The notes: generated by a model from the sequence alone, not told the origin. 64,000 bases of DNA from Candidatus Krumholzibacteriia bacterium (GCA_024763215.1 JANTFX010000003.1:3519-67518), one strand, 5' to 3'. Positions 8,297 to 53,808 are shown, counted from the first letter of the stretch. A program made the numbers and translations.

Positions 8297-8366
8297 GTGG
8301 TCTCGTCCGCCTCCTTGCCCGGCGGCTTTCTGGACACCGGCCCCTCGTGTCGTTACCATTGCTCCC

Positions 8367-8822
8367 ATGGATCTACTGAACTATACACGAGAAAACGCCG
8401 TTCTACCCCATGTCAAGTGCGGCAGCCTCGAAGAAATCGTCGCCCTGCTGGTCGACAAGCTGGCGGCCTCCGGTTTTTCCGGTTCCGGCCCCGGCCTGGT
8501 GGCGGAGATCATGAGGCGCGAACACGAAGGCAGCACCGCCGTGGGTGGTGGGCTGGTGATTCCCCATGCGCGTTGCAAGGGCCTGGACGAGGTCCACATC
8601 GCCCTGGCCACCTTGCAGGATCCCCTGGATCTGGGTGCCGAGGACGGAGTTCCGGTGGATATCGTCATGCTGCTGGTGGGCCCGGAGCGGGATCCCCGCC
8701 AGATGCTGCGGGTGCTGGCCCGGCTGGCGCGCCTGGTCAAGGACAGCTCCTTTCTGGAAAGCATCCGCAAGGCCGAGACCTCAGGTGACCTGATGGCCGT
8801 GTTCGGAGATCTGGCCGGCTGA
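8367..8822 (+). CDS. PTS EIIA type-2 domain protein (PtsN/EIIA-Ntr-like), copy 1
   Basis: Within ORF 8142..8822. Start ATG 8367 (MDLLNYTRENAVLPHVK...). Active-site context GSTAVGGGLVIPHARC. Confidence 0.85.
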   Translation: MDLLNYTRENAVLPHVKCGSLEEIVALLVDKLAASGFSGSGPGLVAEIMRREHEGSTAVGGGLVIPHARCKGLDEVHIALATLQDPLDLGAEDGVPVDIVMLLVGPERDPRQMLRVLARLARLVKDSSFLESIRKAETSGDLMAVFGDLAG

Positions 8823-8960: not shown

Positions 8961-10265
8961 ATGTTTGGACGAGCCGCGAGGCCATGGTTTGCCGCGATGA
9001 TCATCCTGCTGCTGGGGGGATGCTCCCATGATACGATCACCGATCTTCCCCGGCCGGGCAACGGTCCCGCTGCCGCCGTGCATGGTCCCGACTCGGGTGG
9101 CGTGGTCACCCTGCAGGACCTGAATTCCAACCCCGCCGGGGCCGTGGGCTCGGCATCCGCCGATGTCGCGGTGACGCGGTTCACCGGCACCCCGGCCATG
9201 GTTCACCCCGGGGACGATCTGATCCTCAACGCCATGGTGGAAAATTTGGGCGAGCTGGAGGCAGCGGGGCCCTTCCAGGTCTGGATCGGGGTCCTGGGCA
9301 CGAATTTCGTGTTCGGTCAGGTGACCCTTGACGGGTTGAAACCGGGAGAAGGCCGGAGCGGGACCCTGCACTTCACGGTTCCCGTGGGCGAGTTCGCCAA
9401 GGCCTACCCCTCCGGCGTCTATACCCTTTATTGTTCCCATAATTTCATCGACCAGAACCCCACCAACAACTATCTGCTGCAGGATGTCGAACTGCAGGGC
9501 GATGCCCCCCTGGGCGATATCCAGATCAGGGTTTCACCCACGGGTCTGGATGCTCCCTGGACCCTGACGGGCCCCGACGGGGTCGATACAGGCCACGGCT
9601 CCGTCTTGCTGAACGGGATGACCCCCGGCGACTACACCATCGCCTGGGGTGGGGTTTCCGGTTTTCTGACCCCTCCTGAAGAGACGGGGACCCTGCTGGA
9701 AGGCCAGCTCTTGATGTTCACCGGGGCCTATCAAACCACGACCATCAACGATTACATGACGCTCTACTTCGATGCCGGAGGCCCGGAAGTTCCCGGACAG
9801 CCTTGCACCACCGCCGATTTCGCGGAAAACGTGACCGCCTACATCGTGTACATGAACCCTTCCCTTACCAGCACCACCGGATTCGAGTGCGGTTACGACA
9901 TCACTTCTCCCTCCACCACCACCTTCATTTCCCCGGTGTACGTGACCTATCCCACCATGGCCGTGGATGTGGGCACGAGCGACAACCTGGCCGGCACCTA
10001 CAACCATATCGTGGGTTTTTCCTCCCCCCTGGGAATCACCGGCAACAGCTTCGTGCTCGCGACCCTGGACATCCTCTACCTGGAAATGGGCACGGAACTC
10101 GATTTCACCCTGCGGGGGTCCATTCCCAGTTCCCCCCCGAACGACTTGCCCAAGGTCATGCGCGAGGATTTCACCCTCTTGCCCCTGGCCCTGGGCATGG
10201 CCCCCGGTTCACCCACCATGGTGCTCAACCCCGCCGGGGACTGCCCGGTGATCCCCATCCAATGA
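8961..10265 (+). CDS. Lipoprotein with CARDB-like (Ig-fold) N-terminal domain, function unknown
   Basis: ORF track 8961..10265 (+). Lipobox MIILLLGGC-SHD. The segment ...VTRFTGTPAMVHPGDDLILNAMVENLGELEAAGPFQVWIG... resembles CARDB. SD AAGAAGGGGG lies upstream. Confidence 0.75.
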   Translation: MFGRAARPWFAAMIILLLGGCSHDTITDLPRPGNGPAAAVHGPDSGGVVTLQDLNSNPAGAVGSASADVAVTRFTGTPAMVHPGDDLILNAMVENLGELEAAGPFQVWIGVLGTNFVFGQVTLDGLKPGEGRSGTLHFTVPVGEFAKAYPSGVYTLYCSHNFIDQNPTNNYLLQDVELQGDAPLGDIQIRVSPTGLDAPWTLTGPDGVDTGHGSVLLNGMTPGDYTIAWGGVSGFLTPPEETGTLLEGQLLMFTGAYQTTTINDYMTLYFDAGGPEVPGQPCTTADFAENVTAYIVYMNPSLTSTTGFECGYDITSPSTTTFISPVYVTYPTMAVDVGTSDNLAGTYNHIVGFSSPLGITGNSFVLATLDILYLEMGTELDFTLRGSIPSSPPNDLPKVMREDFTLLPLALGMAPGSPTMVLNPAGDCPVIPIQ

Positions 10266-10285
10266 CGTGATGGCGAGGAGGTGCA

Positions 10286-10313
10286 GGGCCCGGCCGCCGG
10301 CCGGGCCCTTTTT
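10286..10313 (+). terminator. Intrinsic terminator GGGCCCGGC-cgccg-GCCGGGCCC-TTTTT
   Basis: Read directly: 9-bp GC stem, 5-nt loop, T5 tract, 21 nt after the lipoprotein stop. Confidence 0.8.
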
Positions 10314-10345
10314 CGGTAAATATGCAGTAAACCTGTAATGAGGCC

Positions 10346-10374
10346 TTGAACCAACGGGGGCCCGGGAGTAATTT
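10346..10374 (+). promoter_or_regulatory. Sigma70-like promoter TTGAAC-17 nt-TAATTT for the envelope operon
   Basis: Read directly. Located between the upstream terminator and the LTD gene start (10432). Confidence 0.45.
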
Positions 10375-10431
10375 ACCCCCTTACCCTTGAGTCTTCCGAC
10401 GCACTCCGGATCCCTGAAAGGGAGTGGTTTC

Positions 10432-12822
10432 ATGTCCCACGCAGATTGGAAGTTGTCCCGCCCACGGCTGCGGACGGGTATTAGTATGGTGATCCTGCTG
10501 GCGGCCGCGGCCTGGGTTCTGCCGCAGACCGGCACGGCGGCCCCCGCCGCCGCCGACCATTTGCTGCTGGCGGAGATCCAGACCCTCAACAGCACCGATA
10601 CCCGCCGCCCCCTGGCCAGCGAGTACATCGAGATCGTCAACCCCACCGCTGGTGCGGTCGACCTGAGCGACTACTACCTGACCGACGCCGTCTTCGCCTC
10701 CGGAGACCAGTACTACTGGCGGATCGCCGAGGGCGCCCCGTCCGGCAGCACGGCCGGCGGCGGGTCGTTCTCCGACTTCCACGGCCGCTTCCCCGACGGT
10801 TACAGCATCGCCCCCGGGGACACCCTGGTGATCGCGGTGTCCGGCGGCAGCAAGGCCTACCAGGACGCCTACGGCAAGCTGCCGGATTTCGAGGTCTATG
10901 AGGATGGGTCGGCTCCGGATGAAGTGCCCGAACTGCGGGAGGCCTTCCCCGGTGCCATCAACGCGGGCCTCGGCGGCGGCGACAACACCCCGAGCCTCAG
11001 CGACGGTTACGAGTCGCTGGTCCTGTACCGCTGGGACGGCACGACCGATCTGGTCCAGGATGTGGATTTCGCCTTCTGGGGCGGGGGCAGCACCGGCAGC
11101 CAGTTCGACAAGACGGGGGTGACGGTGGGCTCGGGCACCTATCTGCCCGATACGCCGGTGGCCGAGCAGCAGACCATCGACACGGCCACCTTGAACCCCG
11201 GCCAGTCCTACATGCGCAAGAGCGCCGACGAGGGAACCGAGGCGGCCTCCGGCGGCAACGGGATCACCGGTCATGACGAGACCAGCGAGCCCCTGGGCGC
11301 GACCTGGGAAATCACCACCCAGGATCCCGCCGCCCAGCCGGACACCTTCTTCCCCTCGGCTCCTTTGATCACCGGTCACGGGGTCAGCCCCGCCGCGCCC
11401 TACGACGGGCAGGCGGTGACCATCACGGTGGAGGCGGCTTCCTATTCGACCCTGTCCGGGGCCACCTTCTACGTGGCCTACGATCGCGGTCCCTTCAACC
11501 CTGTTGCCGGGACCGATGCCGGGAACGGGATTTACACCCTCGCCGTCGAACCCCAGAGCGAGGGTACGGTGGTGAGCTGGTACGTGGCCGTGACCAACAG
11601 CGACGGGGCCGAAACCGTCTACCCCGCCGGGGGCGAGGGCACGCCGGAGAGCTGGACCGTCGGCGCGGTGCCGCCGCCCAGCAACGATCCGGACAAGCTG
11701 CTGCTCACGGAGATCTGCACCCTGGGCACCGACCAGGAGTTCGTGGAGATCTACAATCCCAACGATCATGACGTGGACATGTCGGACTATTACCTGACCG
11801 ACGCCATCTACAGCCCCAACAACCAGTTCTACTGGCGCATCGCCGAGGGCAACCCGGGGCCCAACACGGTCGGCGGCGGGGCGTTCGGCGACTTCGAGGC
11901 CCGGTTCCCGGCCGGGTTCACCATCGCGGCCGACGATACCATCGTGATCACCTGCCCCGGCAGCGCCGCCTTCTCGGCCTCCTACGGCTTCCTGCCGGAC
12001 CTGGAGCTGTTCGAGGACGATCCGGTGCCCGACAACGTGCCGGACATGATTCCGGTCTGGGGCACCACGGACAACGGCAGCATCAAGAGCGCCGACTCGA
12101 CCCCGGGTCTGAGCAACGCCGCCGAGATCGTGATCCTCTACAACTGGCGCGAGGGCGACGACCTGGTCACCGACATCGACGTGTTCTCGTGGAAGGATCC
12201 CTCGTCCACGACCACCAGCTTCTTCTTCGACAAGACGGGGGTGACGGTGGGGGGCTCGACCTATGGTCCCGACACCCCGGTTTCCAACCAGCATCCGTTT
12301 GCCACCCAGCTTTCCTTCGGCCTCTCGTACCAGCGCACCGACCCCCTGGAGGGAAATCAGATCTCCAGCGGCGGCAACGGCGTCAACGGTCGGGACGAGA
12401 CCAGCGAGGACTTCAACGCCACGTTCACCGACCAGCTGGCCGCCGATCCCGCGCGGCCGGGAGGCGTTGCCGGCGAGGGGGCCAAGAGCGCCGAGCTGGT
12501 GGTCGACGCCAAGACCTTCATCCCCACCATGGGCGAGTCCTTCCCCGTCCGCTTCGTCTCCAAGCCCCAGAGCGAGACCAGGCTGAGGATCTTCGATCAG
12601 CAGGGACGCCTGGTGATCACCCTTTTCGACAGCCGTTTCAACGGCGCGCCGTCTGTGATTCCCGGCGCATACACCACAGTGCTGTGGGATGGCCGGGATC
12701 GGGAATTCGAACGAGTCAAGGCCGGCATGTACATCATCCACCTCTCGGTGATTGATCGACGTTCCGGTGACGAGGATACACTGACCGCGCCCGTGGTCGT
12801 GGCCACGCGGTTGAGCAACTAG
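10432..12822 (+). CDS. Secreted protein with two lamin-tail-domain (LTD) units, a central Ig-like domain and a FlgD-Ig-type C-terminal domain
   Basis: Within ORF 10387..12822. Start ATG 10432 (MSHADWKL..., signal peptide ...AAWVLPQTGTAAP) after AAAGGGAG. LTD signatures EYIEIVNPTAGAVDLSDYYLTDA and EFVEIYNPNDHDVDMSDYYLTDA. C-terminus ...RLRIFDQQGRLVITLFD...VLWDGRD...GMYIIHL. Confidence 0.85.
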   Translation: MSHADWKLSRPRLRTGISMVILLAAAAWVLPQTGTAAPAAADHLLLAEIQTLNSTDTRRPLASEYIEIVNPTAGAVDLSDYYLTDAVFASGDQYYWRIAEGAPSGSTAGGGSFSDFHGRFPDGYSIAPGDTLVIAVSGGSKAYQDAYGKLPDFEVYEDGSAPDEVPELREAFPGAINAGLGGGDNTPSLSDGYESLVLYRWDGTTDLVQDVDFAFWGGGSTGSQFDKTGVTVGSGTYLPDTPVAEQQTIDTATLNPGQSYMRKSADEGTEAASGGNGITGHDETSEPLGATWEITTQDPAAQPDTFFPSAPLITGHGVSPAAPYDGQAVTITVEAASYSTLSGATFYVAYDRGPFNPVAGTDAGNGIYTLAVEPQSEGTVVSWYVAVTNSDGAETVYPAGGEGTPESWTVGAVPPPSNDPDKLLLTEICTLGTDQEFVEIYNPNDHDVDMSDYYLTDAIYSPNNQFYWRIAEGNPGPNTVGGGAFGDFEARFPAGFTIAADDTIVITCPGSAAFSASYGFLPDLELFEDDPVPDNVPDMIPVWGTTDNGSIKSADSTPGLSNAAEIVILYNWREGDDLVTDIDVFSWKDPSSTTTSFFFDKTGVTVGGSTYGPDTPVSNQHPFATQLSFGLSYQRTDPLEGNQISSGGNGVNGRDETSEDFNATFTDQLAADPARPGGVAGEGAKSAELVVDAKTFIPTMGESFPVRFVSKPQSETRLRIFDQQGRLVITLFDSRFNGAPSVIPGAYTTVLWDGRDREFERVKAGMYIIHLSVIDRRSGDEDTLTAPVVVATRLSN
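10558..12430 (+). repeat. Internal tandem duplication at protein level (unit 1 about 10558-11310, unit 2 about 11698-12430)
   Basis: The units align by eye: LLLAEI../LLLTEI.., YYWRIAEGAP../FYWRIAEGNP.., GGGSFSDFHGRFPDGYSIAPGDTLVI/GGGAFGDFEARFPAGFTIAADDTIVI, FDKTGVTVGSGTYLPDTPV/FDKTGVTVGGSTYGPDTPV, SGGNGITGHDETSE/SGGNGVNGRDETSE. Confidence 0.8.
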
Positions 12823-12834
12823 AGAGGGTGAGCG

Positions 12835-13725
12835 ATGTCCCGGAAACTAATTATTCTCATTGCGATAGCTGCGCTCGGCCTTGAGGCCGGGCCCGCGGCG
12901 GCCTTTTTCGAGAACACCATGGTCAGCCCCCGGGCCAGGGCCATGGGCGAATCCGCGGTGGCCGTGCCGGGAGGGGCTTACGCCTCGTTCTACAATCCCG
13001 GCCTGCTGGCCGTACGCACCTCGGGCGAGGTGGGGGCCAGTTACGTGGAGCCCTTCCAGCTCGGCTTCAACGATTTCTACGCCATGGGGGCCGTCCTGCC
13101 GCTGCAGGAACGCTACGGCGCCATCGGCATCGGGCTGAGCGAGTACAAGGTGTCCTACCAGGACGTCGATCTGCTCAAGGAGACCCAGGTGACCTTTTCC
13201 CACGGCCTGACGCTCTTCGAGGATTTCCACTCGCGGGTCGACCTCGGGTACAGCGTGAACGTCTACCGGGTCGAGCAGTCCGAGACGGTCAGCGGGCTGA
13301 ATCCCGGCGATGATACGGTCCTGGGCGTGGATTTCGGCATGGTCATGAACCTGCACAAGCGCACCACCCTGGGGTTCCAGGTCAAGAACATGAACAACCC
13401 CCAGATCGGCCTGGACGAGGAGGAGCTGGCCCGCCGCCTGATCGCCGGTGTGACCTATGCTCCCTATGAGGGCGTGCTGACGACCTTCGAGATCGACAAC
13501 GAGCTGGGCCAGGATGTCCAGTACCACGGCGGGATCGAGATGACGGTGGCCGACGGATTCTTCCTGCGCGGCGGCGTGGTGACCGGTCCCAACAAGCTGA
13601 CCGCCGGCTTCGGCTACTACCTGCAGGGCTTCTCCCTGGACTACGGTTTCAGCACCGGCGGCGGCACCCTCGAGACCACGCATCAGTTCGGCGTGAACTT
13701 CGCCTGGGGCGGTGAGGCGCAGTGA
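12835..13725 (+). CDS. Outer-membrane beta-barrel protein, PorQ/PorV/FadL-like (296 aa)
   Basis: ORF track 12835..13725 (+). Signal peptide MSRKLIILIAIAALGLEAGPAAA. Hallmark N-terminal motif SPRARAMGESAVAVPGGAYASFYNPGLLA. Alternating beta-strand pattern, aromatic-rich C-terminus ...HQFGVNFAW. Confidence 0.8.
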   Translation: MSRKLIILIAIAALGLEAGPAAAFFENTMVSPRARAMGESAVAVPGGAYASFYNPGLLAVRTSGEVGASYVEPFQLGFNDFYAMGAVLPLQERYGAIGIGLSEYKVSYQDVDLLKETQVTFSHGLTLFEDFHSRVDLGYSVNVYRVEQSETVSGLNPGDDTVLGVDFGMVMNLHKRTTLGFQVKNMNNPQIGLDEEELARRLIAGVTYAPYEGVLTTFEIDNELGQDVQYHGGIEMTVADGFFLRGGVVTGPNKLTAGFGYYLQGFSLDYGFSTGGGTLETTHQFGVNFAWGGEAQ

Positions 13726-16268
13726 AAAAACTCCTGAACCCGGACGGGATACGGATCCCGTGGTCGCGGGAGGTGGTCGGCTGGGTCCTGTGCCTGGCCT
13801 TGATCGCGGTCCTGGCGCCGTGGCCGGCCAACGCCGGCTCAGCCGCCGGCGACAGGTCCAAGGTGGACTTGAACAGCGCCTCCTACGAGGAAGTGGCCGC
13901 CCTGCCCATCCCGGCGGAACTCGCCCGCAAGATCATCGATTACCGGACCTACCTGCGCTACTTCGACAACGTCTACGACCTGATGGAAATCCGGGGCATG
14001 ACCCCGGAGATCCTGGCCCGGCTCAAGCCCCTGGTCGAGACCATGCCCCCGCCGGAGGTGGACGCCAGCATCGCCCGGCTTTCGGCCAGTTACCGGCAGG
14101 TCCAGCAGTACCTAGGTCAGGAGGGCTCCAGCGAGGGGCTCTCGGACGAGTATCTGGACAAGATGCGCAACCCCGAGAACATCAACGACATGGATCTGTA
14201 CGATCTGATGTCGTACCAGAACGTCTCGCCGGTGGATGCGTCCAACATCCTGAAGGCCCGCGCCCGTCTGGGACATTTCGAGAACATGCGCCAGCTGCGC
14301 CGAGCCGACGGTCTGCGCTACTACGCATACCGCAACCTGCGCGACTTCGTGGTCTACAGCCCCGAGGAGATGGAGGCCAACTCCAGCCACGCGGTGACCG
14401 GTTACGCCCAGACCCGGTACTACGAGACACCGTTCTCGGCCTCGGACGACGAGGTCGGGAGCTTCGCCAGCGGCGCCCCCCGAGGCCGGTACTTCGTCGA
14501 CCAGAAGAGCCTTTACCGGCCCGGCTGGTTGAACAAGCTGCGCATCACCGCCTCCGACGGCCTCGTGGGCGGGATGCTGACCAGCCGCGAATACGGCGAG
14601 AAGGACTGGGACGAGACGGCCAAGGGCTACGTGGGCATCACCGACCGCAAGTTCGGCGGCTTCCGCCTGAAGGGCCTGTATGTGGGCGACTTCCGGGTGG
14701 CCTACGGCCTGGGTCTGGTCATGGACAACACCGACTACATCCACTTCCGCAAGACCGGTTACGGTTTCAACAAGCGGTTGCTGGGCGTGCACGGCGACCT
14801 GAGCCGCAGTTACGAGTACAACCTGCGCGGGGTAGCCGCCGAGGGTTCGTACGGGCGGCTGAACGCCTCCTTCTTCGTATCGAGCGACGACAAGGACGGC
14901 ATCGTCAATCCCGACGGCACCTTGAACCGCTACGTGCTGATGCGTCCGCGTCCGGAGGCCGATTTCCTGGAGAACCGTACGGTCGGCGGCGTGCCTTCCT
15001 ACCTGCGCCGTGACGCCATCAGCGAAAATATCGTCGGCGGCAACCTCAAGGTCAGCCTGGCACCGGGAACCTTCCTGGGCGTGACCGGGTACGAGGCCCG
15101 TTACGATCATGGCTGGAGGGCCGACGAGAACGTCCTGGTCTCCAACACCGACCTTCTCGAGGCCCGCGACAACGGAATCTGGAACTCCTACACCAGCGTC
15201 TACACCGATGCCGACGGCAACACCCAGGAGGCCAAGTGGCGCCGGGTGATGGGCGCCGAGGGGCAGGCCGTGGTCGGCAACGTCGCGGTCCAGGGCGAAT
15301 ACGCCTTCCTGCAGGATCCCCGCAACAACTTCTTCTCTTCGAAGAACCCCGACGCCTACATCATCAACACCTTCGCCCAGTGGGACAACCTGCACGTGCT
15401 GGGCATCTGGCGTGATTACGACGTGGGCTTCGACAACCCCTACGACCGGGCTTTCAGCAACGACAGCCGTTACGAGATGACGTTGCTGGACGCCCCCTAC
15501 CGGCTGAACGACGACCTGTACACCTGGCTGGTATCGGAAACGCCCCAGCCCAAGGCCGAGAAGGGCCTGTACCTGGAGACCCGCTACCGGATCAGCCGGG
15601 CCCTGACCCTCAGCGGCCTGTCGTTCGACCGCTGGAAGCGCAAAGCCGACGGGGCGGACATGACGCGTTACACCCTGAAGGCCGAGTACCAGCCCATCTT
15701 CAATGTGCGGTTCCGCGTGCGGCATCGTTACAGCAGCCGCACCGAGGACAACCCGGAGGATGTGCGGACCTACCGCAACTGGGAAACGCGCTGGCAGATG
15801 ATCACCATGCTGAGCAACTACAACCGGCTGCAGTTCATGTACATGACCAGCAACGTCATGTTCCCCCCGCGGCCCCGCCTGGGCGGCACGCCCGATGCCG
15901 GCGCGGGGGACCCCTCGGTGGGCACCGCGGGCATGCCCGCCCACGCCTTCGAGGTCCGCTACGAGCACAACCTGACCCCGGGCATCAAGCTGATGTTCGC
16001 CTCGTCGGTTTACGACGGATTCCTGTGGAATTTCGAGGGCAACGAATTCGTGCTGCTGGACGGCCAGGGCTTCCGCAACTGGTTCAAGATCCAGAGCCGG
16101 GTGTCCCAGCGGATGCTGTTCCAGCTCAAGGTCACCCGCGACCACAACCTGCCCAAGACCTACGTGGACGTGCGCCGTTTCGGGGATCCCAGCGGGAACG
16201 AGCCCGATACCGACTACGCCCCCAAGGATGACACCATCGTCCGTCTGCAGATGGACTACACCTTCTGA
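13722..16268 (+). CDS. ComEA-type helix-hairpin-helix domain fused to a large outer-membrane beta-barrel (848 aa)
   Basis: ORF track 13722..16268 (+). The GTG start overlaps the previous stop (GTGA). Signal peptide ...LIAVLAPWPANAGS. HhH VDLNSASYEEVAALPIPAELARKIIDYR...LMEIRGMTPEILARLKPLV. Long Tyr/Gly/Asp-rich strand region ending in the OMP signature ...VRLQMDYTF. Confidence 0.85.
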   Translation: MKKLLNPDGIRIPWSREVVGWVLCLALIAVLAPWPANAGSAAGDRSKVDLNSASYEEVAALPIPAELARKIIDYRTYLRYFDNVYDLMEIRGMTPEILARLKPLVETMPPPEVDASIARLSASYRQVQQYLGQEGSSEGLSDEYLDKMRNPENINDMDLYDLMSYQNVSPVDASNILKARARLGHFENMRQLRRADGLRYYAYRNLRDFVVYSPEEMEANSSHAVTGYAQTRYYETPFSASDDEVGSFASGAPRGRYFVDQKSLYRPGWLNKLRITASDGLVGGMLTSREYGEKDWDETAKGYVGITDRKFGGFRLKGLYVGDFRVAYGLGLVMDNTDYIHFRKTGYGFNKRLLGVHGDLSRSYEYNLRGVAAEGSYGRLNASFFVSSDDKDGIVNPDGTLNRYVLMRPRPEADFLENRTVGGVPSYLRRDAISENIVGGNLKVSLAPGTFLGVTGYEARYDHGWRADENVLVSNTDLLEARDNGIWNSYTSVYTDADGNTQEAKWRRVMGAEGQAVVGNVAVQGEYAFLQDPRNNFFSSKNPDAYIINTFAQWDNLHVLGIWRDYDVGFDNPYDRAFSNDSRYEMTLLDAPYRLNDDLYTWLVSETPQPKAEKGLYLETRYRISRALTLSGLSFDRWKRKADGADMTRYTLKAEYQPIFNVRFRVRHRYSSRTEDNPEDVRTYRNWETRWQMITMLSNYNRLQFMYMTSNVMFPPRPRLGGTPDAGAGDPSVGTAGMPAHAFEVRYEHNLTPGIKLMFASSVYDGFLWNFEGNEFVLLDGQGFRNWFKIQSRVSQRMLFQLKVTRDHNLPKTYVDVRRFGDPSGNEPDTDYAPKDDTIVRLQMDYTF

Positions 16269-16289
16269 TAGATCGAGGAGACTGGAGAC

Positions 16290-17660
16290 ATGAATACGAA
16301 TCGACTGCACAACGAAGGTGACCGGCGGACCGCAGGCAGCGACCGGAGCCATGTGCCGGCCGTGGTGCTCGTCCTGCTGGCGGTGTCCCTGCTCATGGCC
16401 GGCGCGGCCCAGGCCGTGCCCCAGATCAACTCGCCCTACGGCGACCAGATGGGCTGGTTCAGCGCCGAGGTCAACGCCATGGGCGGCACCGGCGCGGCCC
16501 TGTACCGCGGCGGTTACAGCACGGTGTTCAATCCGGCCCTGCTGAGCCGGGCCGAGGGTTACCGCCTGGATGCGGGCATGGTGCTGGATCAGGAGCACGA
16601 GGACCGCTTCCAGCCCCTTTTCGACTCCTTCGACAGCTACGTGACCGACGCGGCCATAGCCAGCAACCGCCACCATAATTTCGCGACGGGCTTCGCGGTG
16701 GCCGGCCGCCCCGGCGGGCCCGAGTCCCCTTTCGGTGCCGGCCTGTCCCTGACCGATCGCTACCCCTTCGACTACACCTTCGAGGAGGAGCTGCGCAACC
16801 CCAGCCCCTTCCCCCCCGGCACCGGCGAACCGGCCCGGGACATGATCATCGAGGAGCGCGCGCGCGAGGTCAGCGGCACCCTGCGGGATCTTTCGGTGGG
16901 GGTCGGCTACACCTTCGATGAGCACGTGTCCCTCGGCGCCGCGGCCCACTACGCCTTCGGGACCCGGACCGAGATCATGCGGGACCGGGATTTCGTAACC
17001 CCCGAGAACAGCTACAACCGCCGCAGCGATTTCGATATGGACGGGGTGAACTTCACCCTGGGCGCCCAGGGGGTCATCAGCGAGCGGATCCAGGTCGGGG
17101 TGGCGTGGGAGAGCAAGCTGTCCGCGTCGGGCGACTGGCAACAGACCGATTTCGACGCCGCGGTCGATTCAACCTCCGAGACCATGACCGACGCCTACTT
17201 CAAGTACCCCCAGTCCTTCCGCGCCGGTCTGACCTTCCTGCCGCGCAGCGATCCGCGCACGGTGTTCACCATGGAACTGGAGTACAAGACCTGGAGCGAT
17301 CTGGAGGACTGGCGCGTGCCCGGTGACGACAACCCCCAGCACCTCGAGGACACCACGGACGTCCGCATCGGCCTGCAGCACTCCTTCTACAACGGCATGG
17401 ACGCCCGTTTCGGCTTCCGGCACTACGAGAGCTACCTGGACAAGGAAGCCACCGCCAGCGTGTTCTCCGCGGGCGTGGGCGCGCCCTTCGGCGCGGGTAT
17501 GTTCTCGGCCTCGATGGAACTGGCCAAGGTCACCAGTGTTCAGGCTCACCAGTTCCCGTACCCGGCCAGTTACTTCGGGAACAGCTTCGTCGTCGATCCC
17601 ATGGCCCGGGTCGAAGACACCCGGTTCCGGATCGGCGCCGGTTACAAGGTGGAATTCTAG
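16290..17660 (+). CDS. Outer-membrane beta-barrel protein, FadL/PorV-like (456 aa)
   Basis: ORF track 16290..17660 (+). Signal peptide ...LLMAGAAQA. Motif AEVNAMGGTGAALYRGGYSTVFNPALLS. C-terminal ...RFRIGAGYKVEF. Confidence 0.8.
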   Translation: MNTNRLHNEGDRRTAGSDRSHVPAVVLVLLAVSLLMAGAAQAVPQINSPYGDQMGWFSAEVNAMGGTGAALYRGGYSTVFNPALLSRAEGYRLDAGMVLDQEHEDRFQPLFDSFDSYVTDAAIASNRHHNFATGFAVAGRPGGPESPFGAGLSLTDRYPFDYTFEEELRNPSPFPPGTGEPARDMIIEERAREVSGTLRDLSVGVGYTFDEHVSLGAAAHYAFGTRTEIMRDRDFVTPENSYNRRSDFDMDGVNFTLGAQGVISERIQVGVAWESKLSASGDWQQTDFDAAVDSTSETMTDAYFKYPQSFRAGLTFLPRSDPRTVFTMELEYKTWSDLEDWRVPGDDNPQHLEDTTDVRIGLQHSFYNGMDARFGFRHYESYLDKEATASVFSAGVGAPFGAGMFSASMELAKVTSVQAHQFPYPASYFGNSFVVDPMARVEDTRFRIGAGYKVEF

Positions 17661-17662
17661 TG

Positions 17663-19381
17663 ATGCGTAATAAACTTGCCCTGCTGACTCTGGGTTGCCT
17701 GCTGCTCCTGGTGACGATGACTCCGGCTCTGGCCGGCAAGCCCGGCCCCGACGACGGCGTCATGCGCCTGCATCTGATCTGGACCAACGACATCCACGGG
17801 CACATCGTGCCCGAACCCGCCCGGTTCATGAACCCCGCCTTCCCGCCGCCTCTGGGGGGGGGGTACGCGGCGGCCAGCTACGTCAAGGAGGTCCGCCGCG
17901 AGGCGGCCGAGAAGGGCGAACAGGTTCTGCTGATGGATGTGGGCGACACCTTCCAGGGCACGCCCATAGGCAACAAGACCAAGGGCGAGGCGGTGACCCG
18001 CTATTTCAACGAGCTGCAATACCAGCTTGTGGTGCCCGGCAACCATGATTTCGACAAGGGTCGCGACAACTGCGAGCACCTGGCCAGGATCACGGATTGC
18101 CCCTGGATAAGCGCGAACATCATCGAGAAGAGCACCGGCAAGATCCCCGACTGGCTCATCCCGACCATGATGCTGGATTACCAGGGGATCAAGATCGGCG
18201 TGGTGGGGATCACCACCCCCAGCACGGCGGTCATGTCGTTCCCCGAGAACATCAAGGGCCTGGAATTTCTGCCCATGCCGCCGGTGATCGAGAAATACCG
18301 CGACCAGCTAAAGGACCAGGGGGCGGACCTGATCCTGCTGGCGATCCATGAGGGGCTGCCCTACGACCCCAAGAAGGGGTGGGAGCGCATTGCCGGCCGC
18401 ACCGAGACCGAGACCGCCCAGGAACAGCAGGGCACCTACGGCAGCAACTACTCCCACGGCGGCATGAACCTCATGGAACTGGTCAACAAGGTGGCGGGCA
18501 TCGACATCGCCGTCGGCGGCCATACCCACCGGGGTTACTACCATCCGTGGATCGATCCGGTGCACCATACCATGTGCTTCGAGACCTTCGGCAACGGCTC
18601 GAGCATCGGGCACGTGATCCTGAAGATCGACCGCAAGACCAAGTCCCTGATCGGCTACGAAACGGCCGACAGCAGGGGGACCCTGATCACCCTCTTCGAG
18701 GATGAGATCTGGCCTGACGAGGACATGGAAAAGGTGCTCAAACCCTACCGGGACGAGGCCGAGGCCCAGATGGGTCGGGTCGTGGGCACCACCGCCGTCG
18801 CCCTGGGCCGGGGGGGGCCGGGGGCCAACCTGGTGGGCAACCTCGTGACCGACGCCATGCGGGAGTACTTCAACGCCGACTTCAGCTTCCAGAACATGGG
18901 CGGTTTGCGGGCGGACCTGCCGGCCGGAGACCTGACCTCCCGGGATATCTTCAGCGTGCTGCCGTTCGGCAACGAGCTGGTCACGGTGCAGATGGACGGC
19001 CGCATGCTGCGCCGCATCCTCGAACGCAAGGTGGCCGGGCGCAGCGGGGGCATCTGCATCTCGGGAGCCCAGTGGACTTTTGATACCACGAGGCCGGATT
19101 ACGACCGTGGCGTGTCCCTGCTCATCGGCGGCCAGCCCTGGGACCCGGATCGGATGTACAAGGCCGTGTGCACCAACTTCCTCATGGAAGGCAACAGCGG
19201 GCTGGATTTCCTGACCAGCGTACCGCCCGAGCGCGTCACCCCGACCCAGATCACGACCCAGGAGGCGGTCGAGCACTACCTCCAGCTCCACTCGCCGGTC
19301 CGGCCCCGGGTGGACGACCGCTGGGTGGAGAAGCAGGGAGCGCCCCAGGCTCCGTACCTGGCCAGGCCATACATGCCCTGA
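17663..19381 (+). CDS. Bifunctional metallophosphatase/5'-nucleotidase (UshA-like), secreted
   Basis: ORF track 17660..19381. ATG at 17663 directly follows the previous stop (TAGTGATG). Signal peptide MRNKLALLTLGCLLLLVTMTPALA. Metallophosphatase motifs TNDIHGH, GDTFQGT, VPGNHDFD, GGHTH. Confidence 0.9.
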   Translation: MRNKLALLTLGCLLLLVTMTPALAGKPGPDDGVMRLHLIWTNDIHGHIVPEPARFMNPAFPPPLGGGYAAASYVKEVRREAAEKGEQVLLMDVGDTFQGTPIGNKTKGEAVTRYFNELQYQLVVPGNHDFDKGRDNCEHLARITDCPWISANIIEKSTGKIPDWLIPTMMLDYQGIKIGVVGITTPSTAVMSFPENIKGLEFLPMPPVIEKYRDQLKDQGADLILLAIHEGLPYDPKKGWERIAGRTETETAQEQQGTYGSNYSHGGMNLMELVNKVAGIDIAVGGHTHRGYYHPWIDPVHHTMCFETFGNGSSIGHVILKIDRKTKSLIGYETADSRGTLITLFEDEIWPDEDMEKVLKPYRDEAEAQMGRVVGTTAVALGRGGPGANLVGNLVTDAMREYFNADFSFQNMGGLRADLPAGDLTSRDIFSVLPFGNELVTVQMDGRMLRRILERKVAGRSGGICISGAQWTFDTTRPDYDRGVSLLIGGQPWDPDRMYKAVCTNFLMEGNSGLDFLTSVPPERVTPTQITTQEAVEHYLQLHSPVRPRVDDRWVEKQGAPQAPYLARPYMP

Positions 19382-19435
19382 TGGTGAGGTTGTTTGCAAT
19401 ATGATGAAATAGGCCCAGTTACAGGGTTTTTGCTC

Positions 19436-19478
19436 AAGCCCGCCCCGCGCTGACCGATCATGGGTCAGGGGCGGGCTT
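19436..19478 (+). terminator. Long GC hairpin (AAGCCCGCCCC..CTGACC-gatcat-GGTCAG-GGGGCGGGCTT), no U-tract
   Basis: Read directly: 11-bp outer plus 6-bp inner stem with a 3-nt bulge, 55 nt after the 5'-nucleotidase stop. Confidence 0.6.
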
Positions 19479-19552
19479 CAGCATTGCCGCCCCGGGACAA
19501 GGAAGTCCTGGCACCGCGTCGCAGAGGCGCTAACGACAAGGCGGTCGATCAC

Positions 19553-20797
19553 GTGAAGACTCTGCGTAAAGAAATCCGCAATGAACAGCTCGTACGTTTC
19601 GCCACCCACATGAACAAGACGGTCATCGGCCAACCCCAGGCCATCGACAGGCTCAGCGACAGCTTCAGCCGCCTGATCGCGGGGGTCCACGACCCGGAAC
19701 GGCCCCTGTTGACCATGATGTTCATGGGCCCGACCGGTGTCGGCAAGACCGAGACCGTCCGCGCCCTGGCCGAGACCATCTTCGGCAACAAGCGGGCCTT
19801 CACGCGGGTCAACTGCCAGGAATATTCCGCGCACTACAACATCTCCAAGTTGCTGGGCTCGCCCCCGGGCTACGTGGGGGGCGAGATCCGTCCCCTGCTG
19901 GCCCAGGAAAACCTGGACCGCCACCACAAGAAGGCCCTGGAGAAGCAGTCGGGGCTGGTCAGCGAAAGCGGCAGCAAGCTGAACCGCCTGTTCCCTCCCG
20001 ATTCCGAGCGCTACCTGAACATCGTGCTGTTCGACGAGATCGAAAAGGCGCACCCCAAGCTGTGGAACCTGCTGCTGGGGATCCTGGAGGACGGCACCGT
20101 GGTGCTGGGCAACAACGAGGAAGTCGATTTCCGCCAGTCCATCATCATCCTGACCACCAACGTGGGCAGCGAGGCCATGGGCGCCCACCTGGGCCAGACC
20201 AACATCGGTTTTTCATCCGGCATGGACAACGAACGCATGGACCGGGATGTCGAGGAGGCCGCCCTGCGCGCGGCGAAGAAGGTGTTCCCCTTCGAGTTCC
20301 TCAACCGCTTCGACGACATCATCACCTACCACACGCTGAAGGAGGAGCACCTCTACAGCATCCTCGACATCCTCATCGGGCAGATCCACCAGCGTTCGCT
20401 GATGTGCTCGGAGCCGTTCCTGCTGGAGATCACCGACGAGGCCAAGGCCCACCTCGTGGCCGCGGGCAAGGATATCCAGTACGGGGCCCGGCCGCTGAAG
20501 CGCGTGGTGGAGAAGGAGATCGTCACGCCCATTTCCCACTACATCTGCTCGGACCAGATCCGCAAGGGGGATCTGATCACCGTGGACTACAGCGAGCAGG
20601 ATGGGGAGCTGGTCTTCCGGAAGGAGACCGGGGTGACCAGCTGGGAAGAGCTGGAGAGTCTGGGACCCTTCCCCGCCGACCAGTGGTCCAAGGACGATCT
20701 GGGCGTCAAGGACGACGGGGGCGAGAAGAAGGAACTCGTCGAGGAGATCACCCAGGTCGTCGCCACGGCCGGTTGCATGACCGGGGCCGACGATTAG
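19553..20797 (+). CDS. Stand-alone AAA+ ATPase of the ClpA/ClpB second-nucleotide-binding-domain (D2) type with D2-small domain
   Basis: Within ORF 19460..20797. The listed ATG 19460 lies inside the hairpin loop/stem, so I prefer GTG 19553 (VKTLRKEIRNEQL...). Start uncertain. Walker A FMGPTGVGKTETVRALAE, Walker B IVLFDEIEKAHP, sensor-2 GARPLKRVVEKEI. Confidence 0.8.
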   Translation: MKTLRKEIRNEQLVRFATHMNKTVIGQPQAIDRLSDSFSRLIAGVHDPERPLLTMMFMGPTGVGKTETVRALAETIFGNKRAFTRVNCQEYSAHYNISKLLGSPPGYVGGEIRPLLAQENLDRHHKKALEKQSGLVSESGSKLNRLFPPDSERYLNIVLFDEIEKAHPKLWNLLLGILEDGTVVLGNNEEVDFRQSIIILTTNVGSEAMGAHLGQTNIGFSSGMDNERMDRDVEEAALRAAKKVFPFEFLNRFDDIITYHTLKEEHLYSILDILIGQIHQRSLMCSEPFLLEITDEAKAHLVAAGKDIQYGARPLKRVVEKEIVTPISHYICSDQIRKGDLITVDYSEQDGELVFRKETGVTSWEELESLGPFPADQWSKDDLGVKDDGGEKKELVEEITQVVATAGCMTGADD

Positions 20798-20798
20798 C

Positions 20799-20822
20799 GG
20801 TCCCGCAGCGGGATCAGGGACC
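20799..20822. terminator. Hairpin GGTCCC-(12 nt)-GGGACC between convergent genes
   Basis: Read directly in the 33-nt convergent spacer. Short stem, no U-tract. Confidence 0.35.
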
Positions 20823-20830
20823 TTCGCGGC

Positions 20831-21169
20831 CTACGGCCAGTAGAGGATCCGCCCGCAGCTCTCGCAACGTTGCAGCTTGCCGGCGTTGGTCTTGCTCACG
20901 AAAGACGAGGGGATCTGGGCGAAGCAACCGGTGCAGTGGTTGCCGACCACCGGCACCACGGCGCGGCCGAACTTCGCGGTCAGACGCTGGAAGGCCCCCA
21001 TCAGCTGGGGTTCGATCTGCCCTTCCAGTTCCTCCCTGGCGCGCTTCAGATCATCCAGCCCCGCGGTCTTGAAGCCCATGCCCTCCAGCTCGGAACCCTT
21101 TTCCTCGACTTCCTTGATCATGCCCGTCATGTCCTGCAGGGCCACCAGCAGTTGCAATTGCGGATGCAT
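20831..21169 (-). CDS. Coiled-coil / C4 zinc-ribbon protein (112 aa)
   Basis: ORF track 20831..21169 (-). C-terminal CTGCFAQIP...(16)...RCESCGRILYWP zinc ribbon. The start lies 2 nt after the stop of the upstream EIIA gene. Confidence 0.7.
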   Translation of the reverse strand: MHPQLQLLVALQDMTGMIKEVEEKGSELEGMGFKTAGLDDLKRAREELEGQIEPQLMGAFQRLTAKFGRAVVPVVGNHCTGCFAQIPSSFVSKTNAGKLQRCESCGRILYWP

Positions 21170-30215: not shown

Positions 30216-30251
30216 GATTCCGGCGCGAGGGCCGTCATCCCCCGCAGCGCA

Positions 30252-30280
30252 GGGCGGTAAACGCTTGGCCGCCCGTTTTT
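30252..30280 (+). terminator. Hairpin GGGCGG-(11 nt)-CCGCCC followed by GTTTTT
   Basis: Read directly, 37 nt after the tmk stop. Confidence 0.55.
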
Positions 30281-30304
30281 CTGGCTTGTCCCGAAGGAAC
30301 AGAC

Positions 30305-53656: not shown

Positions 53657-53808
53657 CAGGGAAAGGGGATTCCCTTAGGTTGCAGATCGATCCCCCGCTT
53701 GAAATCGAGCCTGCCCCACCAGGCCAGTGGATTGGAGTACCCGGTCTGCCACCAGACCGGGAATGTTCGTGTCGCTTCCCTGGGGAAGCAAAGATATCGG
53801 AGGCGTTC

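What the first reader, a model, noticed from the sequence alone, without database searches (positions are those of the whole stretch)
10286..19478. Insulated five-gene envelope operon: LTD surface protein, two PorQ/PorV/FadL-like barrels, a ComEA-HhH::beta-barrel fusion and a 5'-nucleotidase (candidate undescribed extracellular nucleic-acid capture/scavenging system)
Seen in sequence: the block is framed by a strong intrinsic terminator (10286-10313) and a 17-bp GC hairpin (19436-19478), and has its own TTGAAC-17-TAATTT promoter. The five CDS are joined by a 12-nt gap, a GTGA overlap, a 21-nt gap and a TAGTGATG junction, which indicates one transcription/translation unit. All five products begin with signal peptides. 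Established knowledge: bacterial lamin-tail domains are typically found in secreted or membrane-associated hydrolases. ComEA-type (HhH)2 modules bind dsDNA non-specifically. UshA-type 5'-nucleotidases turn nucleotides into nucleosides plus phosphate in the envelope. PorV-type FadL-fold barrels bind the C-terminal sorting domains of surface cargo. Inference: this pairs a CTD-tagged LTD surface protein with two CTD-binding-type barrels, a DNA-binding giant barrel and a nucleotidase. I know of no described system with that combination. A plausible role is capturing extracellular DNA or nucleotides at the outer membrane and feeding them to phosphate/nucleoside salvage. No nuclease, T9SS core gene or ComEC-like channel lies in the window, so the mechanism is open.
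Basis: partly seen in the sequence, partly recalled or inferred. Interest (0 to 1): 0.8.

Follow-up and report, generated by a model that had tools for sequence, protein, structure and literature searches.

The report
Outer-membrane nucleic-acid capture and import locus
Five tightly linked envelope genes of an uncultured Krumholzibacteriota bacterium most likely form an undescribed outer-membrane machine that catches extracellular DNA or RNA, passes it through a large DNA-binding-domain-tipped pore and strips phosphate from the products, a new route to a known ecological function.

Summary
Five co-directional genes (10432-19381) with a 12-nt gap, a GTGA overlap, a 21-nt gap and a TAGTG junction encode a 2xLTD surface protein with a T9SS-like C-terminal domain, a PorV-like 14-strand barrel, a tandem ComEA-type HhH module fused to a ~24-strand barrel with no known family, a FadL/TodX/BamG-like barrel, and an intact 5'-nucleotidase.

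The order g1-g5 recurs in about 80 Krumholzibacteriota loci. The core (CTD protein, PorV-like barrel, HhH-barrel, FadL-like barrel) recurs in 8 of 9 distant loci at 28-38% identity, including MAGs labelled Lentisphaeria, Elusimicrobiota and Gemmatimonadetes.

There the surface protein carries LTD, OB-fold or DUF5689 domains. The downstream enzymes vary among 5'-nucleotidase, EEP nuclease, endonuclease I and ComEC-like MBL proteins. That pattern ties the core to nucleic acids.

Best reading (about 0.55): a TonB- and pilus-independent DNA/RNA capture and import complex feeding periplasmic hydrolysis. It is functionally analogous to the Bacteroidales ddb locus but built from unrelated parts.

Caveats: the HhH hairpins lack the canonical Gly-x-Gly, the window holds no nuclease, and nothing is experimentally tested. 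I found no published description.

The parts
10285..10314 (+). Intrinsic terminator of the upstream gene (8961-10265): 11-bp G+C stem plus T run.
   Evidence: 11 pairs, 10 G-C, then TTTTTCGG. (-26.1 kcal/mol, z -2.2).
10346..10374 (+). Promoter-like TTGAAC-N17-TAATTT. A candidate only.
   Evidence: Read. It fails the sigma-70 scan. TTGAAC/TTGCAC-N17-TAnnTT is conserved in L001, L057 and L069.
10411..10423 (+). Conserved leader hairpin TCCCT-GAA-AGGGA overlapping the g1 ribosome-binding site.
   Evidence: The columns are invariant across 6 loci. There is no Rfam match.
10432..12822 (+). g1: 796-aa secreted protein. It has a signal peptide, an LTD, an Ig-like middle, a second LTD, and a ~105-aa T9SS-like C-terminal domain (nt ~12499-12819).
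   Evidence: LTD 68.4 bits, 2 stretches. The CTD profile gives sub-threshold hits to FlgD_ig in 29/34 members, CHU_C in 18/34 and Por_Secre_tail in 15/34. The CTD is conserved immediately upstream of g2 in 72 loci and in 7 distant loci.
12835..13725 (+). g2: 296-aa PorV-like 14-strand outer-membrane barrel with the FadL-type NPx motif. Proposed anchor for the g1 CTD.
   Evidence: PorV_fam 58.6 bits, below the cutoff of 90. The profile hits PorV 6h3i_F at 1.9e-8. The AF2 model has pLDDT 84 and 14 strands. Best Foldseek hits are PorV 8gl6_F and 6h3i_F, TM 0.75/0.74.
13722..16268 (+). g3: 848-aa fusion. It has a signal peptide, two ComEA-type (HhH)2 modules (aa ~46-225, nt 13857-14396) and a ~24-strand beta-barrel (aa ~225-848) ending in Y-T-F.
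   Evidence: HHH_3 69.5 bits, 2 stretches. It aligns to ComEA 2duy and to EEPD1 9yi2. The AF2 model has pLDDT 71, pTM 0.69 and about 24 long strands. Foldseek gives no specific fold relative. The family has 104 clusters at E<1e-30.
16290..17660 (+). g4: 456-aa FadL/TodX/BamG-superfamily barrel with an invariant N-P-A motif.
   Evidence: BamG 70.5 bits, below the cutoff of 250, and Toluene_X 20 bits. The profile hits BAM-complex chain 9hiv_F at 6e-13, TodX at 8e-11 and BamG 9n2d_B at 7e-6. N81, P82 and A83 are invariant.
17660..19381 (+). g5: 573-aa UshA-type 5'-nucleotidase with an SPI-type signal peptide. It is predicted periplasmic and the catalytic motifs are intact.
   Evidence: Metallophos 37 bits plus 5_nucleotid_C 108 bits. 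UshA 1.3e-48. The motifs NDIHGH, GDTFQG, GNHDFD and GGHTH were read.
19436..19478 (+). Strong G+C hairpin after g5 with no U tract. Its loop contains the ATG (19460) of the HslU ORF.
   Evidence: (-37 kcal/mol, z -5.4). Not called a terminator.

Best explanation
The locus most likely encodes an outer-membrane complex that acquires extracellular nucleic acid as a nutrient.

**Proposed steps (all inferred)**
1. g1 is exported and held on the cell surface through its T9SS-like C-terminal domain, bound by the PorV-like barrel g2. This mirrors PorV binding a CTD and PorQ binding PorZ.
2. The LTD domains of g1 bind polymeric nucleic acid. In relatives OB-fold or DUF5689 domains sit at the same position.
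3. The polymer, or fragments cut by nucleases encoded in the locus in other lineages and elsewhere in this genome, enters the periplasm through the ~24-strand barrel of g3. Its strand positions facing the lumen are rich in conserved Arg and Lys.
4. The two ComEA-type HhH modules at the periplasmic N-terminus of g3 hold the incoming chain, as free ComEA does in competence. This would give directionality without TonB or a pilus.
5. g4, a FadL/BamG-type barrel, is a third complex subunit. It may dock a lipoprotein or a second CTD protein.
6. g5 dephosphorylates the resulting 5'-nucleotides in the periplasm. Nucleosides and phosphate can then cross the inner membrane.

**Shown versus inferred**
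- Shown computationally: gene arrangement, domain and fold assignments, cross-phylum conservation, and the link to nucleic-acid enzymes.
- Inferred: every binding, localisation and transport step.
For: **Operon-like packing**
- Junctions were read.

**Conservation**
- The order g1-g5 is conserved in about 80 Krumholzibacteriota loci, down to 40% g3 identity.
- g2-g3-g4 is kept in the same order in 8 of 9 distant loci, with g3 at 28-38% identity. These include MAGs labelled Lentisphaeria, Elusimicrobiota and Gemmatimonadetes.
- The cognate-CTD protein sits upstream of g2 in the 7 of these loci whose contig reaches that far.

**The g1 slot always carries nucleic-acid-associated modules**
- LTD in the window.
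- Big_5 plus an OB fold matching the ExeM/NucH N-terminus in 10 loci.
- DUF5689 plus OB in L081, L083 and L086.
- DUF5689 proteins are the proposed DNA-binding partner of the Bacteroidales DNA transporter DdbC. The Riemerella homologue is essential for natural transformation (PMC12478041, PMC8459023).
- LTD plus OB plus EEP is the architecture of the extracellular nuclease ExeM (PMC6085458).

**Enzymes after the core vary but are all nucleic-acid enzymes**
- 5'-nucleotidase (window, L082, L084, L085, L087, L089).
- A 5'-nucleotidase-like domain fused to EEP, plus a second EEP protein (L081).
- Endonuclease_1 plus two MBL proteins plus a further HHH_3 protein (L083).
- A ComEC/Rec2-like MBL protein in 15 of 87 loci. 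In 12 of them it lies between g4 and g5, and the one read, in L033, has a lipobox.

**Individual proteins**
- The g3 N-terminus is homologous to ComEA and to the tandem HhH of EEPD1.
- g3 strand positions assigned to the lumen hold 37 K+R against 17 D+E, while the barrel region as a whole is neutral. They include an invariant ladder R663/R667/R669/R673.
- The best structural match of g2 is PorV in a CTD-bound T9SS complex.
- g5 has a complete 5'-nucleotidase active site and a periplasmic-type signal peptide.
Against: - The four HhH hairpins lack the canonical Gly-h-Gly. They read LP-IP, RGMTP, QNVSP and DGLRY where ComEA has LPGIGP and KGIGP. DNA binding by g3 is therefore not assured.
- HhH-like folds also occur in GspK, which does not bind DNA. 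g3 gives weak hits to it.
- The function of LTD is unknown. In ExeM it was dispensable for extracellular DNA degradation (PMC6085458).
- The window holds no homologue of the eight nuclease and related hydrolase queries taken from relatives.
- Within the phylum the flanking housekeeping genes (HslU, RsgA, a sulfatase-family gene) are also syntenic. Within-phylum synteny alone is therefore weak evidence of coupling.
- One distant locus has no hydrolase next to the core (L086).
- The most remote homologue (Ca. Caldipriscus, L088) lacks the partners altogether.
- The lumen-charge estimate rests on hydrophobic phasing of predicted strands, not on coordinates.
- No energy source is evident.
- There are no expression or experimental data.
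Confidence: 0.55

Rival explanations
1. Dedicated secretion and attachment module. g3 is a small translocon, a miniature functional analogue of SprA, that exports the CTD-bearing g1. The PorV-like g2 and the FadL-like g4 collect and anchor g1. The nucleic-acid enzymes are only the cargo's working partners, and nothing is imported through g3.
For: - The best fold match of g2 is PorV from the SprA/CTD-substrate complex.
- A specific CTD subtype always lies directly upstream of g2. It scores 55-85 bits there, against 19-46 bits for four of the six other CTD proteins in the same loci.
- g3 is a large barrel of unknown family.
- Several distant loci encode two CTD proteins alongside the two small barrels.
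Against: - g3 has no detectable similarity to SprA or to any secretion pore.
- A periplasmic ComEA-type module has no evident role in protein export.
- No PorLM-type motor is nearby.
- Periplasmic-type (SPI) 5'-nucleotidases need a way for nucleotides to enter the periplasm.
Confidence: 0.15
2. Natural-transformation uptake pore. The same complex imports long double-stranded DNA for ComEC-dependent transformation rather than for food. It would be a pilus-independent counterpart of PilQ plus ComEA, as in the Riemerella system.
For: - ComEA-type HhH modules are fused to the pore.
- ComEC/Rec2-like MBL proteins are present in 15 of 87 loci.
- There is precedent for one outer-membrane machinery serving either transformation or DNA catabolism (PMC12478041; PMC8459023).
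Against: - The constant partners are degradative: 5'-nucleotidase, EEP nuclease and endonuclease I.
- No ComEC, DprA or ComF gene was seen next to the core in any locus read.
- ABC importers are adjacent in three loci.
Confidence: 0.12
3. The substrate is not nucleic acid. The complex scavenges other phosphorylated or anionic compounds, such as nucleotide sugars, NAD, extracellular ATP or organophosphate polymers. The HhH modules would then be structural protein-protein domains.
For: - UshA-type enzymes act on UDP-sugars, NAD and many nucleotides (family names).
- The HhH hairpins are degenerate.
- A sulfatase/phosphodiesterase-family gene is conserved upstream on the other strand.
- CUT1-type ABC importers are adjacent in L084, L085 and L089.
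Against: Recurrent OB-fold or DUF5689 surface modules, endonuclease I, EEP nucleases and ComEC-like MBL proteins in homologous loci point specifically to polynucleotides.
Confidence: 0.1
4. Outer-membrane biogenesis accessory. g4 is the organism's BamG, and g2 and g3 are BAM- or TAM-associated barrels unrelated to nucleic acids.
For: - g4's best NCBIfam hit is BamG.
- The g4 profile hits BAM-complex chains 9hiv_F and 9n2d_B.
- BamG is reported as conserved in most FCB phyla (PMC12611786).
Against: - The BamG score is 70.5 against a cutoff of 250, and TodX scores comparably.
- No BamA/POTRA, BamD or BamH-like gene lies in the locus.
- The locus is tied to LTD/OB proteins and nucleases across phyla.
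Confidence: 0.03

Closest known systems
Bacteroidales DNA-utilisation locus ddbABCDEF and the related Riemerella anatipestifer transformation genes RA0C_RS04915/04920 (PMC12478041, PMC8459023)
   Same: - Both are envelope loci that combine a surface DNA-binding protein, an outer-membrane channel and secreted or periplasmic nucleic-acid hydrolases.
- DUF5689/OB modules occur in the surface proteins of homologous loci here (L081, L083, L086).
- Riemerella also needs a separate periplasmic HhH protein.
   Different: - The channel here is not a TonB-dependent transporter. g3 has no Plug, TonB_dep_Rec or CarboxypepD_reg domain.
- The HhH module is fused to the barrel.
- Two FadL/PorV-type barrels are obligatory partners.
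- The surface protein is CTD-tagged rather than a lipoprotein.
- The window's version has LTDs and no nuclease.
ComEA plus the PilQ/type IV pilus DNA-uptake route of competent Gram-negative bacteria
   Same: A ComEA-type (HhH)2 module is placed on the periplasmic side of an outer-membrane pore. g3 aligns to T. thermophilus ComEA 2duy.
   Different: - There is no secretin and no pilus genes.
- The HhH is covalently fused and duplicated.
- The hairpins lack Gly-h-Gly.
- The partners are degradative enzymes.
T9SS PorV-CTD and PorQ-PorZ pairs
   Same: - g2 is a 14-strand PorV-like barrel, TM 0.75 to PorV in the CTD-bound complex 8gl6.
- It is encoded next to a protein ending in a T9SS-like Ig-fold CTD.
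   Different: - g2 is about 100 residues shorter than PorV and scores below the PorV_fam cutoff.
- No SprA, PorU, PorZ or PorKLMN gene lies in the locus.
- The CTD is below all Pfam CTD thresholds.
ExeM/NucH and B. subtilis YhcR-type extracellular nucleases/nucleotidases
   Same: The domain vocabulary is the same: LTD, OB fold, EEP nuclease and 5'-nucleotidase (PMC6085458; ExeM_NucH hit).
   Different: There the modules are fused into one secreted enzyme. Here they are split over separate proteins organised around three outer-membrane barrels. g1 itself has no catalytic domain.
FadL/TodX channels and Bacteroidota BamG
   Same: g4, and more distantly g2, share the 14-strand fold and the N-terminal NPA hatch motif.
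   Different: They show no link to hydrophobic substrates or to BamA. All curated family cutoffs are missed.

Membership tests
Lamin-tail domain (PF00932), g1 | Pfam LTD score above the gathering cutoff | tested here: met
   68.4 bits against a cutoff of 34.3, in two stretches.
T9SS C-terminal sorting domain (Por_Secre_tail / CHU_C / FlgD_ig-like), g1 C-terminus | Score above the Pfam gathering cutoff for a CTD family | tested here: not met
   The window CTD scores FlgD_ig 16.7 bits (cutoff 27) and CHU_C 14.2 bits (cutoff 27). Across 34 orthologues the hits are recurrent but sub-threshold: 29, 18 and 15 members.
T9SS C-terminal sorting domain, g1 C-terminus | An Ig-like domain of ~80-110 aa at the extreme C-terminus, recognised by PorV and removed by PorU | not testable with these tools
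   Position and length fit. Profile hits to FlgD Ig domains are weak, E 0.01-0.07. Binding and cleavage need experiments or multimer models.
PorV/PorQ family (NF033709), g2 | NCBIfam score above the curated cutoff | tested here: not met
   58.6 bits against a cutoff of 90.
PorV/PorQ family, g2 | 14-strand FadL-type barrel closest in fold to PorV | tested here: met
   The AF2 model has pLDDT 84 and 14 strands. The top Foldseek hits are PorV 8gl6_F (TM 0.75, rmsd 4.1) and 6h3i_F (TM 0.74), ahead of FadL at 0.63. The profile hits PorV at 1.9e-8.
PorV/PorQ family, g2 | Operates with T9SS core components (SprA, PorU, PorZ, PorKLMN) | not tested
   None lies in the locus or in the parts of the window annotated.
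ComEA (HHH_3 / TIGR01259), g3 N-terminus | HHH_3 domain above the Pfam cutoff | tested here: met
   69.5 bits against a cutoff of 27, in two stretches. It aligns to ComEA 2duy_A and 8dss_A.
ComEA, g3 N-terminus | Canonical Gly-h-Gly hairpins that contact DNA phosphates, and an equivalog-level score | tested here: not met
   The hairpins read LP-IP, RGMTP, QNVSP and DGLRY. TIGR01259 scores 40.7 against a cutoff of 152.
ComEA, g3 N-terminus | Sequence-independent dsDNA binding | not testable with these tools
   This needs an EMSA or similar assay on residues 46-225.
Known large outer-membrane barrels (BamA/TamA, LptD, SprA, ushers, TonB-dependent transporters, secretins), g3 barrel | Family-specific domains or a specific fold match | tested here: not met
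   There is no Pfam or NCBIfam hit outside the HhH region. The PDB profile search finds only HhH proteins. Foldseek hits are generic barrels with TMq <= 0.30.
FadL/TodX (PF03349) and BamG (NF053685), g4 | Curated family cutoffs | tested here: not met
   Toluene_X 20 bits against 29.7. BamG 70.5 bits against 250.
FadL superfamily, g4 | Profile-level homology and the N-terminal NPA hatch motif | tested here: met
   The profile hits 9hiv_F at 6e-13, TodX at 8e-11 and BamG at 7e-6. N81, P82 and A83 are invariant.
UshA-type 5'-nucleotidase, g5 | Metallophos plus 5_nucleotid_C domains with the metal and catalytic motifs | tested here: met
   37.4 and 107.9 bits, both above cutoff. The motifs DIHG, GDxxQG, GNHDFD and GGHTH were read. 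The UshA equivalog cutoff is not reached, 166 against 600.
Bacteroidota ddb-type DNA-utilisation locus | TonB-dependent DdbC-type transporter with a DUF5689 partner | tested here: not met
   g3 has no TBDT domains. The window's g1 has no DUF5689. DUF5689 does occur in the equivalent proteins of L081, L083 and L086.
Bacteroidota ddb-type DNA-utilisation locus | Secreted or periplasmic nucleases encoded in the locus | tested here: not met
   The window has none. They are present in homologous loci: L081 EEP, L083 Endonuclease_1 plus MBL, and an MBL protein in 15 of 87 loci.

The most novel reading that the evidence does not exclude
g3 founds a new class of outer-membrane polynucleotide translocon. 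It would be a ~24-strand, arginine-lined barrel with a built-in ComEA-type periplasmic ratchet. It would be flanked by two FadL/PorV-type barrels that dock CTD-anchored DNA-binding proteins. Such a pore would import DNA without TonB, a secretin or a pilus, in several mostly uncultured phyla.
Probability: 0.3. Interest if true: 0.9.

Novelty: new variant of a known kind. Interest (0 to 1): 0.75.

Why it matters
- **Ecology.** Extracellular DNA is a major phosphorus, nitrogen and carbon pool in sediments and soils. Only two outer-membrane routes for it are described: the pilus/secretin/ComEA route and the Bacteroidota TonB-dependent DdbCD/Riemerella route.
- **What this adds.** A third, unrelated architecture conserved across Krumholzibacteriota and found in MAGs labelled Lentisphaeria, Elusimicrobiota and Gemmatimonadetes would help explain how these uncultured groups feed.
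- **Mechanism.** It would show PorV-type barrels used outside classical type IX secretion. A passive, ratchet-driven DNA pore could also interest nanopore engineers.

Tried and rejected
- **Known family for the g3 barrel.** The PDB sequence search with g3 alone and with the family profile, Pfam and NCBIfam and Foldseek against the PDB gave only the HhH match or generic barrels.
- **BamG identity of g4.** Rejected as membership: 70.5 bits against a cutoff of 250, with TodX scoring equally well.
- **Defence-system reading.** PADLOC gave no hits for any of the five proteins.
- **RNA elements.** Rfam found nothing in the window or in the leader.
- **Sigma-70 promoter scan.** It found 0 sites in 9000-21000.
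- **Nuclease in the window.** tblastn with eight nuclease and related hydrolase queries taken from relatives found only g5 itself and one unrelated CTD fragment.
- **Apparent paralogy.** Three loci in one MAG (L034, L038, L040) are collinear at 80-90% nucleotide identity including the flanks. This is most likely strain mixing in a co-assembled bin, not paralogues.
- **Literature.** Searches for a description of the system found none.
- **The 'up2' ORF.** I first used the + strand ORF 6923-8788 as an upstream marker. The real gene there is probably the minus-strand sulfatase-family ORF 6773-8368.
- **Not possible with these tools.** Multimer modelling of g1-CTD with g2 could not be run, and the AF2 coordinates could not be inspected.


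Full report
**1. What is in the sequence**

The window has about 66% G+C. Homologues of its proteins come almost entirely from Krumholzibacteriota MAGs.

Between 10432 and 19381 lie five + strand ORFs.
- g1/g2: TAG, 12 nt, ATG.
- g2/g3: a GTGA overlap.
- g3/g4: TGA, 21 nt, ATG.
- g4/g5: TAGTGATG.

Each start is preceded by a purine-rich stretch.

The upstream gene ends in a strong terminator. It has an 11-bp stem with 10 G-C pairs, followed by TTTTT. Its energy is -26.1 kcal/mol.

The downstream hairpin at 19436-19478 is real (-37 kcal/mol, z -5.4). It has no U tract, and its loop contains the ATG of the next ORF, HslU. 'Insulation' on that side is therefore not shown.

The proposed promoter TTGAAC-N17-TAATTT (10346-10374) fails a sigma-70 scan. 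The pattern TTGAAC/TTGCAC-N17-TAnnTT is conserved in the four closest loci.

**2. The five proteins**

*g1 (796 aa)*
- It has two lamin-tail domains (68 bits).
- It ends in a domain of about 105 aa. Its orthologues recurrently hit FlgD_ig, CHU_C and Por_Secre_tail below threshold. This is a T9SS-type Ig-fold CTD in character, not a certified member.

*g2 (296 aa)*
- It scores below the PorV/PorQ cutoff (58.6 against 90).
- Its family profile finds PorV (1.9e-8).
- A confident AF2 model (pLDDT 84, 14 strands) is closest to PorV from the SprA complex and from the CTD-bound complex (TM 0.74-0.75). FadL follows at 0.63.

*g3 (848 aa)*
- After the signal peptide come two ComEA-type (HhH)2 modules (HHH_3 69.5 bits). 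They align to T. thermophilus ComEA and to the tandem HhH of EEPD1.
- About 24 long beta-strands follow, ending in Y-T-F (AF2 pLDDT 71, pTM 0.69).
- The barrel has no Pfam, NCBIfam or PDB sequence relative. Foldseek gives only generic barrel matches with TM <= 0.30.

*g4 (456 aa)*
- It is a FadL/TodX/BamG-superfamily barrel with an invariant NPA motif.
- It misses every curated cutoff, including BamG at 70.5 against 250. The comparison protein is described in PMC12611786.

*g5 (573 aa)*
- It is an intact UshA-type 5'-nucleotidase with an SPI-type signal peptide.

**3. Conservation**

A scan of species-representative genomes gave 80 loci. In all that extend far enough the order g1-g2-g3-g4-g5 is kept, down to 40% g3 identity.

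This alone is weak evidence of functional coupling. HslU, RsgA and an upstream sulfatase-family gene are syntenic too.

The informative evidence comes from remote relatives. An exhaustive HMMER search found 104 clusters (50% identity) at E<1e-30, typically 760-890 aa long. Where they carry a name, it is only 'HhH domain-containing', 'ComEA family', 'ComE-like DNA uptake protein' or 'hypothetical protein'. They include MAGs labelled Lentisphaeria, Elusimicrobiota, Gemmatimonadetes and Ca. Caldipriscus.

I read nine such loci.
- Eight keep g2-g3-g4 orthologues in the same order. A protein with the cognate CTD lies directly upstream wherever the contig reaches that far (hmmsearch).
- The Caldipriscus gene stands alone.

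**4. What varies, and why it matters**

*The g1 slot*
- It holds 2xLTD in the window.
- It holds Ig-like repeats plus an OB fold matching the N-terminus of ExeM/NucH nucleases in ten Krumholzibacteriota or 'Eisenbacteria' loci.
- It holds LTD, OB and DUF5689 combinations in the distant loci.
- All versions end in the same CTD.

*The slot after g4*
- A 5'-nucleotidase in the window, L082, L084, L085, L087 and L089.
- A 5'-nucleotidase-like domain fused to an EEP nuclease, plus a second EEP protein, in L081.
- Endonuclease I, two MBL proteins and another HHH_3 protein in L083.
- In 12 Krumholzibacteriota loci an extra ComEC/Rec2-like MBL protein sits between g4 and g5. The one read, in L033, has a lipobox. 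Homologues occur in 15 of 87 loci overall.
- CUT1-type ABC importers are adjacent in three loci.

A constant three-barrel core is thus combined with interchangeable nucleic-acid-binding heads and interchangeable nucleic-acid hydrolases. This is the signature of a substrate-acquisition locus for polynucleotides.

**5. Mechanism proposed**

All steps are inferred.
1. g1 is exported and docked on the cell surface through its CTD, bound by the PorV-like g2.
2. The LTDs of g1 bind DNA or RNA. OB or DUF5689 domains do so in relatives.
3. The polymer or its fragments cross the outer membrane through g3.
4. The periplasmic tandem HhH modules of g3 retain the chain, as free ComEA does. This gives directionality without TonB.
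5. g4 is a further subunit, perhaps docking a lipoprotein as BamG does.
6. g5 removes 5'-phosphates in the periplasm.

A rough phasing of the predicted strands puts 37 Arg/Lys against 17 Asp/Glu on the lumen side. The barrel region overall is neutral (77 against 80). An invariant ladder R663/R667/R669/R673 is included. This fits a polyanion path, but it is not based on coordinates.

**6. Weak points**

- All four HhH hairpins lack Gly-h-Gly.
- The function of LTD is unknown. In ExeM it was dispensable for extracellular DNA degradation (PMC6085458).
- The window has no nuclease.
- One distant locus lacks adjacent hydrolases.
- No energy source is evident, and there are no expression data.
- The rivals I considered are a dedicated secretion/anchoring module for g1, a transformation pore, a non-nucleic-acid phosphate scavenger, and a BAM accessory.

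**7. Comparison with what is known**

- **Closest by function: the Bacteroidales ddbABCDEF DNA-utilisation locus and the related Riemerella transformation genes** (PMC12478041, PMC8459023). They share the logic of a surface DNA binder, an outer-membrane channel and hydrolases. They also share the DUF5689/OB vocabulary and a requirement for an HhH protein. Their channel, however, is a TonB-dependent transporter and their binder a lipoprotein. Neither is true here.
- **The ComEA/PilQ route** shares only the HhH module.
- **T9SS** shares only the PorV-like barrel and the CTD.
- **Literature.** Searches found no description of this combination.

I therefore file it as a new variant of a known kind, namely an envelope nucleic-acid acquisition locus. 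There is about a 0.3 chance that g3 is a genuinely new class of DNA translocon.

**8. Verdict**

- Observation: confirmed.
- Mechanism: plausible but untested.
- Interest: 0.75.

Noticed in passing
window 10411-10423 (+), within the g1 leader 10376-10431: A small hairpin TCCCT-GAA-AGGGA overlaps the g1 ribosome-binding site. It sits in a block (GGATCCCTnGAAGGGAGTGATTCCATG) that is nearly invariant in six loci, while the surrounding intergenic sequence diverges. It may be a translational control element. There is no Rfam match.
   Followed up: partly
L033:13794-15128 and the same position in L032, L035, L039, L048, L052, L064, L067, L072, L074, L076, L077: An extra gene between g4 and g5 encodes a metallo-beta-lactamase-fold protein whose best named matches are the ComEC/Rec2 nuclease domain. 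The L033 copy has a lipobox. Homologues also lie near the core in L083, L084 and L085.
   Followed up: partly
window 63760-63999 (-): The C-terminal end of a gene that runs off the window carries the same type of CTD as g1 (36 bits to the CTD profile). CTD-tagged proteins are therefore not confined to this locus, and a general CTD export route probably exists in the genome.
   Followed up: no
window 6773-8368 (-) versus 6923-8788 (+): The long + strand ORF upstream is probably an antisense artefact of a minus-strand sulfatase/alkaline-phosphatase-superfamily gene (Sulfatase 134 bits, weak Phosphodiest hit). That gene is conserved upstream of the locus in most Krumholzibacteriota relatives. Any functional link is unknown.
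   Followed up: partly
window 19436-19478 (+): A very stable hairpin (-37 kcal/mol) encloses the first ATG of the HslU ORF (19460) in its loop. Either the true HslU start is further downstream, or the structure affects HslU translation.
   Followed up: no
L084:1876-5008, L085:1407-4806, L089:6598-9717: CUT1-type ABC importer genes (two BPD_transp_1 permeases plus an SBP_bac_1 binding protein) lie next to the core in three distant loci. They are candidates for inner-membrane uptake of the products.
   Followed up: no
L034, L038, L040 (all from MAG CAYMCR01): One co-assembled MAG holds three collinear copies of the whole locus at 80-90% nucleotide identity. This is most likely strain or species mixing in the bin rather than paralogues. 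Many carrier MAGs are labelled 'uncultured Fibrobacteraceae' or 'Gemmatimonadales' although their loci match those of MAGs labelled Krumholzibacteriota.
   Followed up: partly
L088:10001-12286 (Ca. Caldipriscus): The most remote full-length homologue of g3 (761 aa) has none of the partner genes. It sits among housekeeping genes, so the family may predate the system or have other uses.
   Followed up: partly
window 44198-46366, 53467-57652, 29513-32125, 62478-63743: The window also encodes an S46 dipeptidyl-peptidase, two M16 peptidases in tandem, an S41 tail-specific protease with a PDZ domain, and a CarboxypepD_reg-domain protein. This suggests a polymer-degrading, protein-scavenging lifestyle.
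   Followed up: no
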